Shown here piece after piece: positions 16 through 56,349 of a stretch of DNA of 64,000 nt. Numbering within the stretch: position 1 is the stretch's first letter; each line of letters starts with the position of its first letter. Made by a program: the position numbers and the translations under genes. The DNA lies in NCBI GenBank assembly GCA_951406725.2, contig OX597822.1, forward strand, positions 44,392,001-44,456,000. Direction: 5' to 3'. Origin of the DNA: Octopus vulgaris. Taxonomy: Eukaryota. The notes below the pieces were generated by a model. That model searched no databases. It was given only the letters and a program-made list of their open reading frames with translations, and was not told the origin of the DNA.

Positions 16-998
16 AGCCGAAATTACTACGATGATCCGGTTCTTGACTGAAGACTGAGGGTTTCGAATGTCCTGTCCGTGTTTATTGTGTCGTCTTCTA
101 AGAGTTATACGTTCTTGTCCATGTTGTAATTTTCTACATACCTTAACATATATTCCAGGCGCCCCGTACCCCCCTTAACATTTATGTGAGCACATATTCT
201 TAATAATTGGTACGACTCTCTGTTTGTCTCTCTCTCTCTCTCATTTTTACTTGATCTGTCCCCCTCTCTCTCTTTTCTCTCTACTCATCCTCTTTTTCTC
301 TTCTCTTTCCTCTGATTCTTTGGTCTAGTCTTCCACTACCCTCCTATTTCTTTGTCTCGCTCTGCACTCACAGGTCATTCTTCGACACCCATCCCTTCTC
401 CTCTCTGATTCCTTCTTTCTCTCTCTTCTCTCTCTTTGTTGCGTTTGTCCCTCCTCTCTCTCTCTCCTCTCTCTTTCTCTTCCTTTGCTTCTCTTTCTTT
501 TCTTTTCCCTCTTCTCTGTCACGTGACTGTTGGCCGAAATCTGCCTTTCAGCTTCTGACCCTCGTCTTGTTAACATCGCTGTTTTCGTCCGCCACTATAA
601 AGGCTTTTTCCATTGCGCCAGAGAAAAAATTTGTTTGCTTGTTATCAGTCGTAAGACACTGTTGTTTTCACCGTTAATGCTTCTGTATTTCATGTTTCTG
701 TATTCCATTATTGTTTTTTGTTTTTTTATATCTGTCCCTTTTGCTGTCCTGGTGTTCGTATGCATTCGATCCTTCTTCCAGGAAATCTACGCTTCCAGCT
801 TAGTTTTTCTAATGCTCGTTGCTTGGTTTTTCTTGGAGGGCTGGCCGTGATCTAGTAATCTCAAGATTAATCAGCCGAAATTACTACGATGATCCGGTTC
901 TTGACTGAAGACTGAGGGTTTCGAATGTCCTGTCCGTGTTTATTGTGTCGTCTTCTAAGAGTTATACGTTCTTGTCCATGTTGTATTTTTCTACATAC
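16..998. mobile_element. Non-coding element bounded by ~125-bp direct repeats (Penelope pLTR-like or LTR-like)
   Basis: 16-141 is nearly identical to 873-998 (agccgaaattactacgatgatccgg...ttctacatac). The interior is CT-rich and non-coding, and both sides abut TA/TACA microsatellite. Confidence 0.6.
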
Positions 999-999
999 T

Positions 1000-1091
<92 letters not shown>

Positions 1092-1544
1092 CAAGCAATA
1101 AAGGGTTTAGCAACGAATTGCCTTACCACAGACCGAATTTAGAAATAGCAGTCAAAGAGTTATAGCTATTTCTTCTACTAAAAAGGGAGATCTCAGTAAA
1201 AAACACAGCAATTGGAAGGCAGACACAAACAGGTAAGAGAATGAATTGACGGCAATCTATCATACAATGTTAAGTTATCTACGGACGCACGTTTCGAAAT
1301 CAAGTTTTTAGGAACTCAAAGTGTGAATGAAAGGATTGTGTCACCAGCCCCTTCCCACCCGCGTGTAGCCAAAACAAGATGCTATGGTCATCTACTGAGA
1401 TAAGGGGCTGGTGACACAATCCTTTCATTCACACTTTGAGTTTGGTGATACTAGTTGCGGATTCTAGCTCGCTCTGATACTGAGTTGAGTTGGTGCCTTC
1501 TAGTATCTCAAAATTCAATATATAATCACTTATGATTATAGTAT

Positions 1545-1644
1545 TCTACGCTGAAGAGAAAAGAAGTTTGGGTAACGTAGAATTATTTAATATTTAATTC
1601 TCATGCTTTCCTAAAAACTTGATTTCGAAACGTGCGTCCGTAGA
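1545..1644 (+). ncRNA. Type I hammerhead ribozyme motif (minimal stem III, long stem II)
   Basis: tctacg-CTGAAGA-[g aaaagaagtttggg...cctaaaaacttgatttc]-GAAA-c gtgc g-TC^-cgtaga. Stem I is tctacg/cgtaga; GUC cleavage triplet at 1636-1638. Confidence 0.7.
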
Positions 1645-2140
1645 TAACTTAAAATTGTATGATAGATTGCCGTCAATTCATTCTCTCTTACCTGTTTGTG
1701 TCTGCCTTCCAATTGCTGTGTTTTTTACTGAGATCTCCCTTTTTAGTAGAAGAAATAGCTATAACTCTTTGACTGCTATTTCTAAATTCGGTCTGTGGTA
1801 AGGCAATTCGTTGCTAAACCCTTTATTGCTTAGTATTACTTAAATTTTCCTCGAATGAGGCTTTTACATGCCGAAGACTACTTGGTGTAATTGATAATTA
1901 TTCCAAATTAATTAATTTCACCCTTCATTATTACGGATAACCATATTTTATCTCAGTAGATGACCATAGCATCTTGTTTTGGCTACACGCGGGTGGGAAG
2001 GGGCTGGTGACACAATCCTTTCATTCACACTTTGAGTTTGGTGATACTAGTTGCGGATTCTAGCTCGCTCTGATACTGAGTTGAGTTGGTGCCTTCTAGT
2101 ATCTCAAAATTCAATATATAATCACTTATGATTATAGTAT

Positions 2141-2240
2141 TCTACGCTGAAGAGAAAAGAAGTTTGGGTAACGTAGAATTATTTAATATTTAATTCTCAT
2201 GCTTTCCTAAAAACTTGATTTCGAAACGTGCGTTCGTAGA
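2141..2240 (+). ncRNA. Type I hammerhead ribozyme motif, second copy (GUU triplet)
   Basis: Same as 1545-1644, offset by 596 nt, with gaaacgtgcgtt^cgtaga. Confidence 0.65.
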
Positions 2241-2445
2241 TAACTTAAAATTGTATGATAGATTGCCGTCAATTCATTCTCTCTTACCTGTTTGTGTCTG
2301 CCTTCCAATTGCTGTGTTTTTTACTGAGATCTCCCTTTTTAGTAGAAGAAATAGCTATAACTCTTTGACTGCTATTTCTAAATTCGGTCTGTGGTAAGGC
2401 AATTCGTTGCTAAACCCTTTATTGCTTAGTATTACTTATATATAT

Positions 2446-2476
<31 letters not shown>

Positions 2477-2603
2477 TACATATATACATATATATACATA
2501 TATATATATGTATACATTCATATATATGTATACATGTATATATATATATATATACATACATACATGCATACATATATATGAGTATGTGTGTGTGTATATA
2601 CAT

Positions 2604-2652
<49 letters not shown>

Positions 2653-3056
2653 TATATACATACGTATATATATATATACATATATATATATGTATACATT
2701 CATATATATATATGTATACATGTATATATATATATACATACATACATGCATACATATATATGAGTGTGTGTGTGTGTGTATACAGGCACGTGTATAAGTA
2801 GATGAACCGATAAAGAGATAAAAAATATATCGGCATAATACTGTTGAATACATTTGGGTATAAATTTTTCGAACATTATCTTATAGTTACGGAAAACATT
2901 CAGATAGTGGATTGCTTGTAAAATTTCAGGGTGAAATGTCACTACATGGCGAATAGTACCTAAAATGTATTAAGAGTCGATTATATTACAGTATTTATCA
3001 CTACCAACCAGTACTGATTACTCTGCTCTTATATATGTATGTGTATATATATATAC

Positions 3057-21642: not shown

Positions 21643-23037
21643 TTTTTTTTTCTTCTTTCAAATTTGCTTCCATTTCTTGCCGAGTGTCTTCCCGACTCCT
21701 AGGGCAAAGAAACTCATAGTATACATTGGTAGGCCATTAAACCAAACTCAATAGTTCGTTCATTTAAAAAAAAATTTTTTTTTAAAGTTAAATTAAAATA
21801 CATGAGCAGCAACAGTTCTCACATCGACAATGCTCTTCTCAATACGTGTGATGTACCAGTTAAGACAATCTTTTGCACTTCTTGCAGGGATGGTAAGCCA
21901 GGGATCATTCTCATATAATTTTCGGTTCCCTTCTTGATCATTCCTAGTGCTCCTACGATCACTGGTATTGTAACCGCCTTGAGATGCCACATTTTCTCAA
22001 TTTCAATGAGTAGGTCTTTATATTTTCTGAGCTTGTCAAACTCTTTCGCTGAGATATTATGATCGCAGGGGATGCTCATGTCGATCAATAAGCAAACTTT
22101 ATTGTTTTGGTCTTTCACAACAATATCTGGTTTATTGGCCTTGATGGTTTGGTCTGTATGTACTGGAAAGTCCCATAGAATGGTTACATTTTCTCCTTCA
22201 GTTACAGCCTCAGGGTGGTGATTATACCACTTGTCGGCAGTTTTGATATAGTAATGCCGACTTATTAGCCAGTGTAGATATTGGCCAACTCTGTCATGTC
22301 TTAATTTATACTCCACTGGTGCTAAGACTTTACATCCAGAGATTAGGTGGTCCACTGTTTCAATCATGTCGTTGCAGAATCGGCATTTTGGGTCTGCTCC
22401 ATTTTTCATCACATTGGCCTGGTAGTTCCGGGTTAATAGGCTTTGATCTTGAGCAGCCAGGATGAAACCTTCGCTCTTTGCTTTTAGCCCTGAGCTCCGT
22501 AGCCACTGATGGGTTTGCTTCTGGTCAACATCAGCTTGTTTGCTGCGGGTCACATATTTGCCGTGTAGAGGTTTCTCCTCCCACCTATCAGCCAATTGCT
22601 CGTGCGCTTTTTTCGTTGCCATCATTTTCACCTTCTTTGCAACAATAGTTGCCGTACTTCCCTCGGGTTGTTCAGTTTGGGTATCCTGCACGAGATCAAT
22701 AGCAAATTTTTTGCTTTCCTTTATAATAGAATGAAGCTTCTTTCGTCTCTCGTGATTTTCCACGAGCTTTAGCATCCAGTCATTCGATATTTCGAGATAT
22801 TTGGCCAGTCCAATTGTGGTTGTTTTGTAAGCTAGTTCAAATTGGATCAGGCCTCGACCTCCTTGGGCTCTGGGAAGGTAAAGGCGATCTACGTCTGCCT
22901 TTGGGTGGTGCATCCTATTACAACTCAGCAGCTTGCGTATTTTCCTATCTATATTCTTTACTTCACTCATATTCCAGTTCAACACATTGTAGCTATAAGT
23001 AACAACTGGAACTGCTAAGGAATTTATAGCAAACACC

Positions 23038-23038
<1 letters not shown>
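21641..23038 (-). mobile_element. 5'-truncated R4/Dong-clade RLE non-LTR retrotransposon in (TAA)n
   Basis: Open 405-aa frame plus a ~180-bp 3' UTR ending in an A-run and (TAA)n; (TAA)n also lies at the 5' junction. Confidence 0.92.
21819..23036 (-). CDS. C-terminal part of a retrotransposon ORF: RT thumb, CCHC zinc knuckle, restriction-like endonuclease (5'-truncated, no true start)
   Basis: AINSLAVPVVTYS, DRLYLPRAQGGRGL, AAQDQSL, CRFC...ETVDHLISGC, RHD, KPDIVV...LIDMSIP...K...KY, PVIVGALG. Confidence 0.9.
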   Translation of the reverse strand: MFAINSLAVPVVTYSYNVLNWNMSEVKNIDRKIRKLLSCNRMHHPKADVDRLYLPRAQGGRGLIQFELAYKTTTIGLAKYLEISNDWMLKLVENHERRKKLHSIIKESKKFAIDLVQDTQTEQPEGSTATIVAKKVKMMATKKAHEQLADRWEEKPLHGKYVTRSKQADVDQKQTHQWLRSSGLKAKSEGFILAAQDQSLLTRNYQANVMKNGADPKCRFCNDMIETVDHLISGCKVLAPVEYKLRHDRVGQYLHWLISRHYYIKTADKWYNHHPEAVTEGENVTILWDFPVHTDQTIKANKPDIVVKDQNNKVCLLIDMSIPCDHNISAKEFDKLRKYKDLLIEIEKMWHLKAVTIPVIVGALGMIKKGTENYMRMIPGLPSLQEVQKIVLTGTSHVLRRALSM

Positions 23039-23096
<58 letters not shown>

Positions 23097-23244
23097 GTTA
23101 TTATTTTTATTTTTTTATTATGTTTATTGTGTGTACCAGTCAATTAGTGGGGGGTTGATGTAATCAACTTGCCCTTCCATCAAAATCTACTAGCCAAGTG
23201 CTAAAATTTGAAATTACTACAACTATTACTACTACTACAACTAT

Positions 23245-42854: not shown

Positions 42855-43814
42855 GTAATGTATTATAACTCTATTTTATGCTCCTGAGAATTAAATTCTA
42901 TTACAGTTGATCTCTAAAAGTCCCCTTCAAACTCAACACCTTCCTGTCGTCGATTACACAGTAAATATCATATGAGCGTTCGTTCGTACCACAAACAAAA
43001 CACAGAGACACTGACCTTAATGAGATACCAGTGGTTCCCTCATATTTCTGCTCTTTTTCTCTTATTTCTTTTGTCCATGATCCAAATTCAGCTGGTTTAG
43101 TGACTGTTTATGGTCTTGGTGTGGAGGCGCAATGGCCCAGTGGTTAGGGCAGCGGACTCACAGTCGTAGGATCGTAATGTATTATAACTCTATTTTATGC
43201 TCCTGAGAATTAAATTCTATTACAGTTGATCTCTAAAAGTCCCCTTCAAACTCAACACCTTCCTGTCGTCGATTACACAGTAAATATCATATGAGCGTTC
43301 GTTCGTACCACAAACAAAACACAGAGACACTGACCTTAATGAGATACCAGTGGTTCCCTCATATTTCTGCTCTTTTTCTCTTATTTCTCTTGTCCATGAT
43401 CCAAATTCAGCTGGTTTAGTGACTGTTTATGGTCTTGGTGTGGAGGCGCAATGGCCCAGTGGTTAGGGCAGCGGACTCACAGTCGTAGGATCGTAATGTA
43501 TTATAACTCTATTTTATGCTCCTGAGAATTAAATTCTATTACAGTTGATCTCTAAAAGTCCCCTTCAAACTCAACACCTTCCTGTCGTCGATTACACAGT
43601 AAATATCATATGAGCGTTCGTTCGTACCACAAACAAAACACAGAGATACTGACCTTAATGAGATACCAGTGGTTCCCTCATATTTCTGCTCTTTTTCTCT
43701 TATTTCTCTTGTCCATGATCCAAATTCAGCTGGTTTAGTGACTGTTTATGGTCTTGGTGTGGAGGCGCAATGGCCCAGTGGTTAGGGCAGCGGACTCACA
43801 GTCGTAGGATCGTA
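42855..43814 (+). repeat. Three near-identical tandem 319-bp units ending inside a SINE head
   Basis: Units start at 42855, 43174 and 43493. Each ends ggaggcgcaatggcccagtgg...gtcgtaggatc(gta); only the third continues into a full SINE. Confidence 0.95.
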
Positions 43815-54073: not shown

Positions 54074-54537
54074 GTTCGTGTTGTTGTTATGCCTAGTGTG
54101 CCATATATTTGGTTTTGTGTTCAGTGTTGTACTAGTGAATGTCTAAAAAAAAAAAACGAAAATTATGTTTGTTTTAAAACTTGAGATTACATAGAAAGTA
54201 TTTTGCGTAGGATATGAGCAGTACCCATGAGCACTGTCTTTTGAATTTCTGCCATTTTCGGGTTTCCTAGTATCTGAGTTAGGTAGCGATCAGCCCCTTT
54301 TGCTATCATTCCAAGAGCACCTATGACGACAGGTATTGTTTTAGTCTTCAGGTTCCACATTTTGCTGATTTCTATTTCAAGATCTTTATATTTGCTCAGT
54401 TTTTGGTAGGTCTTGACAGATACGTTTATATCGACTGGGACAGTCATATCAATGAGGAGGCATGTTCTTTGTTTGAAGTCTTTCAATATGATGTCTGGTC
54501 TATTTGCATCTATCTTTCTGTCAGTTTGAATGGGGAA

Positions 54538-54540
<3 letters not shown>
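54074..54540 (-). mobile_element. 5'-truncated R4/Dong-like element: RLE domain plus part of the 3' UTR, between (TAA)n arrays
   Basis: FPIQTDRKIDANRPDIILKDFKQRTCLLIDMTVP...KLSKYKDLEIEI...PVVIGALG...ILRKILSM*, clearly paralogous to the end of ORF 21819-23036. Confidence 0.9.
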
Positions 54541-54616
<76 letters not shown>

Positions 54617-54730
54617 CTGTTGTTATTGTTATTGCTGTAGTTGTTATTATTATTATTATTATTAGTAGTAGTAGTAGTAGTGGTAGTAGTAGTAGTAGTA
54701 GTAAAAGCAGCAGCAGCGGCAGTAGTAGTT

Positions 54731-54802
<72 letters not shown>

Positions 54803-56349
54803 ATAGCAGCAGCAGCAGCAGCAGTAGGAGTAGTAGTGGTAGTAGTAGTAGCAGCAGCAGTATTGGTAGTAGTAGAAAGTTTAGTAGTATGAAAATGCTA
54901 ATACTAACGACGATGACGACGATGACGATGATGATAATGATGATGACGGTGATCATGATGATCATGATGATAATGATGATGATGGTATTGATGACGACGT
55001 TAAAGATAACGGTGATGAGCATGTCGTTTAGCACAACGTCGAGAAGATTCCTCATATTTTTAGGAGTATGTGCAACTATGTTATGATGCTTCAAATATTC
55101 GAAAACCAATTATATTTATGACGATTTGATTGGTGATGATTTGGTATATATTCTTGCAGTTGCAATGTCGTGCATAATTCCAATTTGAAAATTTAGTATC
55201 GAATATAGTATTGATCACGTATAATAATCACATTTAAACACCGGAAATTGCTGTGACTACATTCACCATTCCACAAAGTAATGGTACTGTGACTATTTAA
55301 GTGGCTTACTCCATAGAGATAAGCGAGAAATGTAGGAGAAATTGAAGTTATATTTGATGCGCAATCTAATGATGACAGCACTTGACCTAATAAGATATTT
55401 GACGGGTGAAAGTATATGATATATTTTCTTGAGAATTTAGTGACCATCCATGCGAAATTTTCAGTGTACTCGCGAAGGAGTTGATCAGCATTGTAGCTGA
55501 AATGTAATTCCTTGTTAGTAATATTGAACGTTGATAATTTGCGTGAGGCAAGGTTGGTACAGGTCTGCATTCTTTAGATTACGTCGGGGTCACCAATGTT
55601 AAATTTTTTGGCGTGAGGCTGAGAAAATGCTCTTGTACTAATATAGTGAATGATTCTCGTTTCAAAATGTGATATGAAATGTAATATTTATTTCGTATAA
55701 TTATCTTTGAAGCAATAGAAATTGCCATGAACATTTTCTACCATGTGACAAATGTAGCCTAAATCAATATTAACAGATGCTATCCGTTTTGATAGCTTCT
55801 TTTCAATGTTCATACGGTATCAATGAAACAATATTTGAATGCGTGTGGACAGAAATATATAATGCGGTAAAATATTGTTAACAATGTATTTTCTCAGAAG
55901 ACATAGTATAATGAAAGATAACATAACAGAAATATTACATATCTAAAAATAATTCCCTATTAAAGAGAGTTTACAGCGTTCAAACATACAACGAAAGCTG
56001 TCAGTTACAGAAAATTCGAGAATCTTTTTTTACATAGGTTCAGGCACAACTGTACTTATGTAATATTTATATATATATATATATATATATATAGGTGATT
56101 GCGCTCGCGCGTGAGGTGAGTGTCTTGGAGAGTGCGCGCGTGTGGGTGTCTGTGTGTGTGTGTGTGGAATGTATGAATGTACATTCTGTGTTGCTAAGAA
56201 GCTAACTTTGCAACCACGACGTATTGGGTTCAGTCCCACTGGGCAGCAAATTATGCAAGTGAATTCCATAACTACGGGGAAAACAATGCCTTGCAAATGG
56301 TATTGTTGGACGGAAACTATATAGAAGACCACCATGTATGTAGATGGAC

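What the first reader, a model, noticed from the sequence alone, without database searches (positions are those of the whole stretch)
1093..2438. Tandem HHR-bounded 596-nt unit (retrozyme-like) with an inverted upstream copy
Seen: two HHR motifs lie exactly 596 nt apart, with predicted cleavage after 1638 (GUC) and 2234 (GUU), inside 441-bp direct repeats. An internally deleted inverted copy precedes them. Stem II is unusually long (~69 nt), and its loop contains cgtagaat, which could compete for the 5' strand of stem I (attctacg). Stem III ACGTGCGT is self-complementary with two G-U pairs. Inference: the two motifs could fold as a dimeric HHR and release a 596-nt monomer able to circularise, and the competing pairing could act as a conformational switch.
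Basis: partly seen in the sequence, partly recalled or inferred. Interest (0 to 1): 0.75.

Follow-up and report, generated by a model that had tools for sequence, protein, structure and literature searches.

The report
Young Penelope-type hammerhead retrozyme insertion
This is one recent copy of a small, protein-free jumping repeat whose conserved hammerhead-ribozyme motif is predicted to cut its own RNA and which was likely pasted in by a Penelope-type retrotransposon enzyme; it is a known kind of animal genome parasite, and the folding switch proposed for it is not kept in its relatives.

Summary
Observation confirmed: two type I hammerhead motifs 596 nt apart in 441-bp direct repeats (one mismatch, at C17), preceded by an inverted arm with a 165-nt deletion, set in (TA)n. 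It is one copy of a very young ORF-less family (175 units of this subfamily; 4960 hits of a shared downstream motif). Across four lineages the core is kept, stem I covaries (5 of 6 pairs) and stem III stays palindromic in most copies, which fits dimer-type cleavage (untested). The 'switch' is not supported: the 8-bp competitor is private to this subfamily and is predicted to be buried once stem II is made. The inverted arm is an insertion footprint, not a special feature: 32 of 61 insertions are two-armed and 83 of 93 arm ends sit at two fixed sites about 100 nt apart, the Penelope-like (PLE) 'tail' signature. Best reading: an animal non-LTR retrozyme, i.e. a non-autonomous PLE passenger. No helper sharing its sequence was found, and circle versus uncut multimer as template is unresolved. 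The scan has reported this kind repeatedly on other DNA of this genome.

The parts
1003..1088 (.). (TA)n run, left side of the target site
1089..1314 (-). Inverted arm, outer piece: unit positions 362-590 (unit 1 = window 1843); begins at the family's fixed end 590; holds only the 3' half of the hammerhead
   Evidence: 98% identical to the direct arm
1313..1403 (-). Inverted arm, inner piece: unit positions 106-196; joined to the outer piece across a 165-nt deletion and to the direct arm, each with a 2-nt overlap
1402..1842 (+). Direct repeat 1 (5'-truncated unit, positions 156-596; pseudo-LTR-like)
1545..1644 (+). Type I hammerhead motif 1: stem I 1545-1550/1639-1644, CUGAAGA 1551-1557, stem II 1558-1626, GAAA 1627-1630, stem III 1630-1637, predicted cut after 1638 (GUC)
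   Evidence: cleavage not tested
1576..1583 (+). CGUAGAAU, the proposed competitor of stem I; private to the youngest subfamily, predicted paired inside stem II
1630..1637 (+). Self-complementary stem III (two G-U pairs as a dimer; a perfect palindrome in most relatives)
1639..2234 (+). Predicted cut-to-cut monomer, 596 nt, 35% GC, longest ATG frame 37 aa, circular fold z = -5.4 against 60 shuffles
1745..1939 (+). Conserved structured module around the two fixed ends (first end at 1836 = unit 590; 'tail' end at about 1931-1939 = unit 89-97); likely recognition and reverse-transcription start region
   Evidence: function inferred from PMC11167929
1843..1997 (+). Unit positions 1-155 between the direct repeats (tail plus remainder)
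1998..2438 (+). Direct repeat 2, ending at unit 596, 6 nt past the commonest fixed end
2141..2240 (+). Type I hammerhead motif 2, predicted cut after 2234 (GUU); the C17-to-U change is private to this copy
2437..2761 (.). (TA)n-rich run, right side of the target site

Best explanation
The element is one young insertion of an ORF-less, 596-nt tandem repeat with a conserved type I hammerhead motif, set in a (TA)n run with a direct arm of 1.7 units and an inverted arm, and it was likely written by the reverse transcriptase and GIY-YIG endonuclease of a Penelope-like element acting in trans. Shown: the anatomy, the family, motif conservation, two fixed arm ends and variable inner ends. Inferred steps: a multi-unit RNA is transcribed; two hammerheads pair through their palindromic stem III and cut, and a double cut would free a 596-nt monomer that a host ligase could close (about even odds that such a circle, rather than uncut multimer, is the usual template); the PLE protein binds the conserved module about 200-300 nt past the cut site, cuts both strands of a (TA)n target and starts copying inside the RNA at unit 590 or at the tail end about 100 nt further on; copying runs through the hammerhead site without stopping, for up to five units; when both DNA ends prime, two arms meet head to head through short overlaps. 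In this copy both arms began at the first site and the inverted arm jumped 165 nt.
For: Family: 1800 candidates, best 40 at 96-100% over full units; 175 exact hits for this subfamily, 0 for the reversed control; 4960 hits of the downstream motif, 0 control. Ends: 83 of 93 arm ends in 61 insertions fall at unit 578-596(+3) (57) or 85-110 (26), windows covering 8% of the unit; 32 of 61 insertions are two-armed, 20 with one end of each type, 4 with two first-type ends, none with two tails. Sister lineage: outer ends again at two sites (that set was picked with a query spanning both sites). Inner ends are scattered and not at the cut site: 2 of 102 within 5 nt against 1.9 expected; 2 of 18 sister arms that reach the site appear to stop there, and on inspection only 2 of these 4 junctions are within 2 nt. 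An intact RT + GIY-YIG PLE family in the same genome (765 aa) has the same footprint: of 29 rows 19 end at one site, 6 at a tail about 37 nt on, 4 run into the element, in (TA)n. Literature: partial tandems, inverted 5' copy, tail and (TA)n preference are PLE features (PMC8557442, passages); a purified PLE protein cuts and extends both strands at AT-rich DNA and starts inside the RNA at two sites that bound the tail (PMC11167929); animal retrozymes are proposed non-autonomous PLE derivatives (bioRxiv 10.64898/2026.07.22.740005). For a one-unit template: of 20 recurring variants seen in one insertion only, 14 are in every covering unit, and 6 of those 14 are sense A>G against 4 of 68 single-unit variants (Fisher p 0.001), as expected if edited RNA is copied round.
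Against: No autonomous PLE sharing sequence with the unit was found: 3 of 50 loci around GIY-YIG hits matched; two were viewed and are separate short insertions, the third was not viewed; a neighbouring PLE fragment proved unrelated; only 150 of 6136 GIY-YIG candidates were scored. The tail here (about 95-105 nt) is longer than the 30-40 bp described. Against a pure circle model: 6 of 20 recurring private variants (and 2 shared ones) are in only some units of an insertion; 'private' means among 63 sampled insertions only; in the Anolis PLE uncut RNA was the dominant template in vitro and the hammerhead cut only with protein; 8 of 9 Xenopus retrozyme dimers did not cut in vitro. All young loci were picked for holding stem II, so one crossing of the cut site per insertion is built in. 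Core versus flank counted per column (0 of 11 against 82 of 360 changed) is not significant for one lineage pair (p 0.13), and the distant-lineage rows in the alignment were picked by a core-like pattern. Rfam does not recognise the motif.
Confidence: 0.8

Rival explanations
1. Same element, but the template is an uncut linear multi-unit transcript; the hammerhead is rarely or never used for circles and tandems are inherited from parent arrays or made by template jumps.
For: 6 of 20 recurring private variants are in a subset of units, two of them in the outermost full unit of both arms but not the inner unit; uncut RNA was the main substrate for the Anolis PLE; no RNA evidence of a circle was obtained.
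Against: 14 of 20 are in all units with an A>G excess; arms reach five units; the motif is kept across four lineages with covariation; related animal retrozymes form abundant circles (PMC7229834, passages).
Confidence: 0.4
2. One reading: CGUAGAAU captures the 5' strand of stem I and toggles the ribozyme between off and on states as a selected control.
For: The 8-bp helix is predicted at -8.8 against -6.6 kcal/mol for native stem I as isolated duplexes and dominates (0.97) in transcripts ending at 1590, so a brief co-transcriptional trap in this subfamily is possible; 2 of 12 relatives have other competitor helices of similar strength.
Against: Absent from the 97% sibling and all other lineages aligned; C1576 is nearly or wholly absent in four other data sets; probability 0.05 by 1612 and 0.00 by 1625; the forced competitor fold is 7.6 kcal/mol worse than the hammerhead fold.
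Confidence: 0.07
3. The piece is the broken-off pseudo-LTR end of an autonomous PLE, locally duplicated by unequal crossing-over (a satellite birth), not an independently mobile unit.
For: This route is proposed in the 2026 preprint; most PLE insertions are 5'-truncated.
Against: The same closed 596-nt unit recurs at dispersed sites on many chromosomes at 99% identity; none of 40 copies fetched with 7 kb runs into a PLE ORF (1 tblastn hit, 1.1 kb away behind a TA run); arrays are in two orientations within one insertion.
Confidence: 0.06
4. A MITE-like DNA element with terminal inverted repeats.
For: This copy has inverted ends of about 229 bp and a TA target.
Against: 29 of 61 insertions have one arm only, arm lengths range from 76 to 3119 nt, inner junctions are scattered and the two outer ends usually differ.
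Confidence: 0.02

Closest known systems
Animal non-LTR retrozymes (Cervera and de la Pena 2020, PMC7229834, passages read; Li, Clavereau and Pollet 2026, bioRxiv 10.64898/2026.07.22.740005, parts 1-3 of 5 read)
   Same: ORF-less, low-GC tandem units, each with a type I hammerhead with weak palindromic stem III; two consecutive motifs meet the preprint's definition of 'active'; co-occurs with autonomous PLEs; 596 nt is inside the preprint's 51-972 bp range.
   Different: Longer than the 170-400-nt RNAs studied in coral, mussel and axolotl; 60-70-nt stem II in this lineage; inverted arms, tails and (TA)n targeting are not discussed in what I read of these two papers ('inverted' and 'microsatellite' occur 0 times in PMC7229834); no molluscs in the preprint's 35 genomes; expression and cleavage untested here.
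Endonuclease-positive Penelope-like elements and their non-autonomous derivatives (Craig et al. 2021, PMC8557442, passages; Frangieh et al. 2024, PMC11167929, parts 1-2 of 4)
   Same: Partial tandem, 5'-inverted copy, optional tail, microsatellite target, hammerhead upstream of the start sites; non-autonomous multicopy head-to-tail Chlamys elements such as MRC1 are described.
   Different: No RT or GIY-YIG ORF; tail about 100 nt rather than 30-40; no sequence match to an autonomous family found.
Dimer-type hammerheads of PLE pseudo-LTRs (Cervera and de la Pena 2014, PMC4209133, parts 1-2 of 4; review PMC6765202, passages)
   Same: Type I, palindromic 15.2-16.2 region, tandem layout.
   Different: Six-pair stem I and 8-nt palindrome are closer to the canonical animal motif than to the minimal one; stem II much longer than 4-8 bp.
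Plant LTR retrozymes (as described in PMC7229834 and the 2026 preprint)
   Same: Two hammerheads in direct repeats about 600 nt apart.
   Different: Type I not type III, 35% GC, variable multi-unit arms, no fixed LTR boundaries.

Membership tests
Type I hammerhead ribozyme | Core CUGANGA / GAAA / UH in type I order | tested here: met
   (219 of 220 core letters kept in 20 sister segments)
Type I hammerhead ribozyme | Stems I-III supported by covariation | tested here: met
   stem I 100% paired, 5 of 6 pairs with two-sided change; stem II base 88.8%, 2 of 4; stem III paired but nearly invariant; slid controls 24-39%. Rows are related (four lineages).
Type I hammerhead ribozyme | Match to an Rfam hammerhead model | tested here: not met
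   the 69-nt stem II is the likely cause (inference)
Type I hammerhead ribozyme | Self-cleavage at the predicted site | not testable with these tools
   only assembled contigs were available
Animal non-LTR retrozyme | Tandem units, at least two consecutive ones with a complete type I hammerhead | tested here: met
Animal non-LTR retrozyme | No coding capacity, GC under 45-50% | tested here: met
   37 aa longest ATG frame, 35% GC
Animal non-LTR retrozyme | Dispersed multicopy family, strongly self-paired monomer | tested here: met
   circular fold z -5.4
Animal non-LTR retrozyme | Accumulates as linear and circular monomer RNA | not testable with these tools
   no holder on record as RNA, contigs only
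Non-autonomous Penelope-like element | Partial tandem with variable 5' truncation and inverted 5' copy | tested here: met
   32 of 61 insertions two-armed, inner ends scattered
Non-autonomous Penelope-like element | Two alternative fixed 3' ends (tail) | tested here: met
   spacing about 100 nt, longer than described
Non-autonomous Penelope-like element | AT-rich or microsatellite target | tested here: met
   flanks printed are mostly (TA)n; not counted formally
Non-autonomous Penelope-like element | Sequence shared with the pseudo-LTR of an autonomous PLE | tested here: inconclusive
   none found in 50 + 25 loci; 150 of 6136 GIY-YIG candidates scored
Autonomous Penelope-like element | RT plus GIY-YIG ORF between pseudo-LTRs | tested here: not met
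Plant LTR retrozyme | Type III hammerhead in LTRs, GC over 55% | tested here: not met
   type I, 35% GC
MITE / TIR DNA transposon | Fixed terminal inverted repeats on all copies | tested here: not met

The most novel reading that the evidence does not exclude
The family is a genomic record of a Penelope-type enzyme copying an edited, self-cut RNA circle round and round from both strands of a broken (TA)n target, guided by a structured recognition module that thousands of otherwise divergent retrozyme units in this genome share and that matches no sampled helper by sequence; that module plus the helper protein would give a compact in-trans system for writing RNA circles into DNA.
Probability: 0.35. 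Interest if true: 0.6.

Novelty: new member of a known kind. Interest (0 to 1): 0.32.

Why it matters
How animal retrozymes get back into DNA is proposed but not shown; the papers read name PLEs as the likely helpers on grounds of co-occurrence and pseudo-LTR similarity. A very young family with PLE-type tails, two-armed insertions and a conserved module around the start sites, next to an intact PLE in the same genome, makes that step testable with the published in vitro PLE assay. The element itself is an ordinary member of a described class, and the scan has already reported several such families in this genome.

Tried and rejected
Rfam at gathering score and to E 10: no hammerhead. A Pfam accession recalled as PLE-specific is not in the library. 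Helper search: unit against 50 loci around GIY-YIG hits, a PLE fragment beside one relative, tblastn of the 765-aa ORF against 89 and then 40 family loci and the window: no shared pseudo-LTR. C17 as a hot spot of change (a possible ligation scar): rejected, the change at 2234 is not among the 30 commonest variant positions and appears in this copy only. Arms stopping at the cut site as a sign of cleavage in vivo: a post-hoc hint (4 of 148) shrank to 2 of 148 when the junctions were read. Expression: no RNA holder listed; contigs of four runs guessed to be RNA cover the unit, one 470-nt contig with one difference spans motif 2, which shows neither transcription, strand, ends nor a circle. One search used a faulty pattern and was redone; the tail count used a faulty pattern and was redone. 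Look-up of earlier scan notes by sequence and near this place: nothing. Paper searches for a description of such elements in octopus and for retrozymes with inverted arms or tails listed none; the library lacks most subscription journals, and bioRxiv supplements were not seen.

Full report
What is there. The window lies at G000:C9:44392001-44456000 in a 2.8-Gb genome of 227 contigs; that it is an octopus is my inference from size and microsatellite load and is also said in earlier scan notes, not tested. At lag 596 the stretch 1402-1842 repeats as 1998-2438 with one mismatch, 1638 C against 2234 T. Upstream, 1089-1314 is the reverse complement of 1608-1836 (98%) and 1313-1403 that of 1948-2038 (100%). 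With unit position 1 set at window 1843, the direct arm is [156-596][1-596] and the inverted arm [106-196][362-590], so 165 nt including CUGAAGA are missing from it. Both outer ends abut (TA)n runs. The cut-to-cut monomer 1639-2234 is 596 nt, 35% GC, has no ATG frame over 37 aa and folds as a circle at z -5.4 against 60 dinucleotide shuffles.

The hammerhead is real as a selected motif. A strict descriptor finds these 2 motifs and nothing else in the window, and 0 in 30 shuffled windows. Rfam does not detect it, probably because of the 69-nt stem II (inference). Relatives were collected by similarity to the unit, to a sister 3' end, by a downstream motif (4960 hits, 0 for the reversed control) and by two distant copies. 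Four lineages emerge. In an alignment of 29 motifs, CUGA, GA, GAAA and U16.1 are invariant, stem I pairs in all cells with two-sided changes at 5 of 6 pairs, and slid controls pair in 24-39% of cells; the 13 distant rows were picked by a core-like pattern from 30 loci, several of which have decayed cores. In 20 sister-lineage segments not picked on the ribozyme, 219 of 220 core letters match against 75% in the rest of the unit; per column this is 0 of 11 against 82 of 360 changed, p 0.13. Stem III is ACGUGCGU here and mostly ACGUACGU, ACGCGU or ACGGCCGU in the others, with one-letter decayed forms such as ACGGCGU in several copies: different palindromes, as expected for dimer-type motifs (PMC4209133 parts 1-2; PMC6765202 passages). 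GUU at the cut site is the usual triplet in one distant lineage, so the change at 2234 need not disable motif 2. Cleavage was not tested, and published rates for such motifs are often low: 8 of 9 Xenopus dimers did not cut.

The switch is not supported. CGUAGAAU pairs better with the 5' strand of stem I than the native partner as an isolated duplex (-8.8 against -6.6 kcal/mol) and is predicted at 0.97 in transcripts ending at 1590, but at 0.05 by 1612 and 0.00 by 1625, when the stem II hairpin buries it; the forced competitor fold is -13.2 against -20.8 for the hammerhead fold. It occurs in the youngest subfamily only (175 exact hits). Four other public data sets read G at 1576 in all or nearly all laid depth. 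In fairness, 2 of 12 relatives have other competing helices of -8.1 and -9.3, so a transient trap is possible but not a conserved one.

The inverted copy is an insertion footprint. I mapped 61 insertions of the young subfamily: 21 from the best full-unit matches (overlapping loci merged; one locus with a masked stretch and one cut by the locus end left out) and 40 fetched with 7 kb, 38 of them from the first 100 of the 175 pattern hits. Of 93 arms, 57 end at unit 578-596 (counting 5 that BLAST extended 3 nt into the TA run) and 26 at 85-110; 10 end elsewhere. 32 insertions have two arms head to head: 20 with one end of each kind, 4 (this one included) with two first-kind ends, none with two tails, 8 with an irregular end. 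56 of 93 arms exceed one unit (28 of 58 in the 40-locus set), up to 3119 nt. Inner ends are scattered; 2 of 102 lie within 5 nt of the cut site against 1.9 expected (these loci were picked for holding stem II). In 29 sister loci picked on the 3' end only, 18 of 46 arms reach the site and 2 appear to stop near it; reading the four nearest junctions left 2 of 148 within 2 nt. A cut linear monomer is therefore not the usual template. The region around the two ends (about 1745-1939) is better kept than the rest (90% against 75%) and is recognisable in all four lineages.

Comparison with PLEs. Partial tandems, an inverted 5' copy, a 30-40-bp tail at one end and (TA)n preference are described for PLEs, including non-autonomous ones (PMC8557442 passages). 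The Anolis PLE protein cuts and extends both target strands at AT-rich DNA and starts reverse transcription inside the RNA at two sites that bound the tail; its hammerhead cut only with protein and was not needed in vitro (PMC11167929 parts 1-2). This genome holds many intact RT + GIY-YIG PLEs whose ends behave alike: 19 of 29 rows stop at one site, 6 at a tail about 37 nt on, 4 run into the element. They share no detectable sequence with the unit, and no helper was identified; only 150 of 6136 endonuclease candidates were scored.

Circle or uncut multimer. In 63 insertions (substitutions only, segments of at least 93% identity, 8 nt trimmed at ends), 20 variants seen in one insertion recur within it: 14 in every covering unit, 6 in a subset; 68 are in a single unit. 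Sense A>G makes up 6 of the 14 against 4 of the 68 (p 0.001), which fits A-to-I-edited RNA being copied repeatedly from one monomer (inference; editing itself not shown). The 6 subset cases, unsampled parents and assembly errors keep the linear-multimer reading alive. I put it near even odds. No usable RNA data exist here.

Verdict. A new member of the animal non-LTR retrozymes (PMC7229834 passages; bioRxiv 10.64898/2026.07.22.740005 parts 1-3 of 5), working like a non-autonomous PLE. The PLE footprint on retrozyme copies was not found in print in my searches, but earlier scan notes report it for other families in this genome, and I took the 'two-armed' wording and the edited-circle test from them. 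Supplements of the preprint could not be seen; its genome set has no mollusc by its own methods text.

Noticed in passing
window 16-1010 (+): A second very young ORF-poor tandem family directly upstream: 857-nt unit, copies 96-100% identical, 1464 candidates, fixed 3' end near window 998 and variable 5' ends. It has CUGAAGA at 48 and 905 but no canonical GAAA/stem III; possibly a PLE-type passenger with a variant ribozyme or none.
   Followed up: partly
L061-L076 (e.g. L076:2536-5810): Abundant intact PLE family with a 765-aa RT + GIY-YIG frame, a Cys-rich linker and a second frame upstream; its pseudo-LTR holds a hammerhead-like variant with U3-A8 and a short palindrome. Candidate helper.
   Followed up: partly
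L027 (G000:C3:109315697-109318225): Two A>G changes, one in each strand of stem I, are present in every unit of both arms; both leave G-U pairs.
   Followed up: partly
L071:6050-6345, L086, L110, L116: Many relatives are only 200-300-bp fold-back insertions made of the two end regions, with no hammerhead; inner ends of the sister lineage cluster near unit 470-505, partly through the query used.
   Followed up: no
window 1089-1314: If transcription came from upstream, the inverted arm would pair over about 229 bp with the 3' half of a hammerhead unit and could block it or feed double-strand RNA pathways (inference).
   Followed up: no
window 21819-23114 (-) and 54187-54897 (-): Two open frames that look like the C-terminal part of non-LTR retrotransposon proteins (resemblance recalled, not searched).
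   Followed up: no
window 42855-43814: Three nearly identical copies of a 319-bp unit.
   Followed up: no
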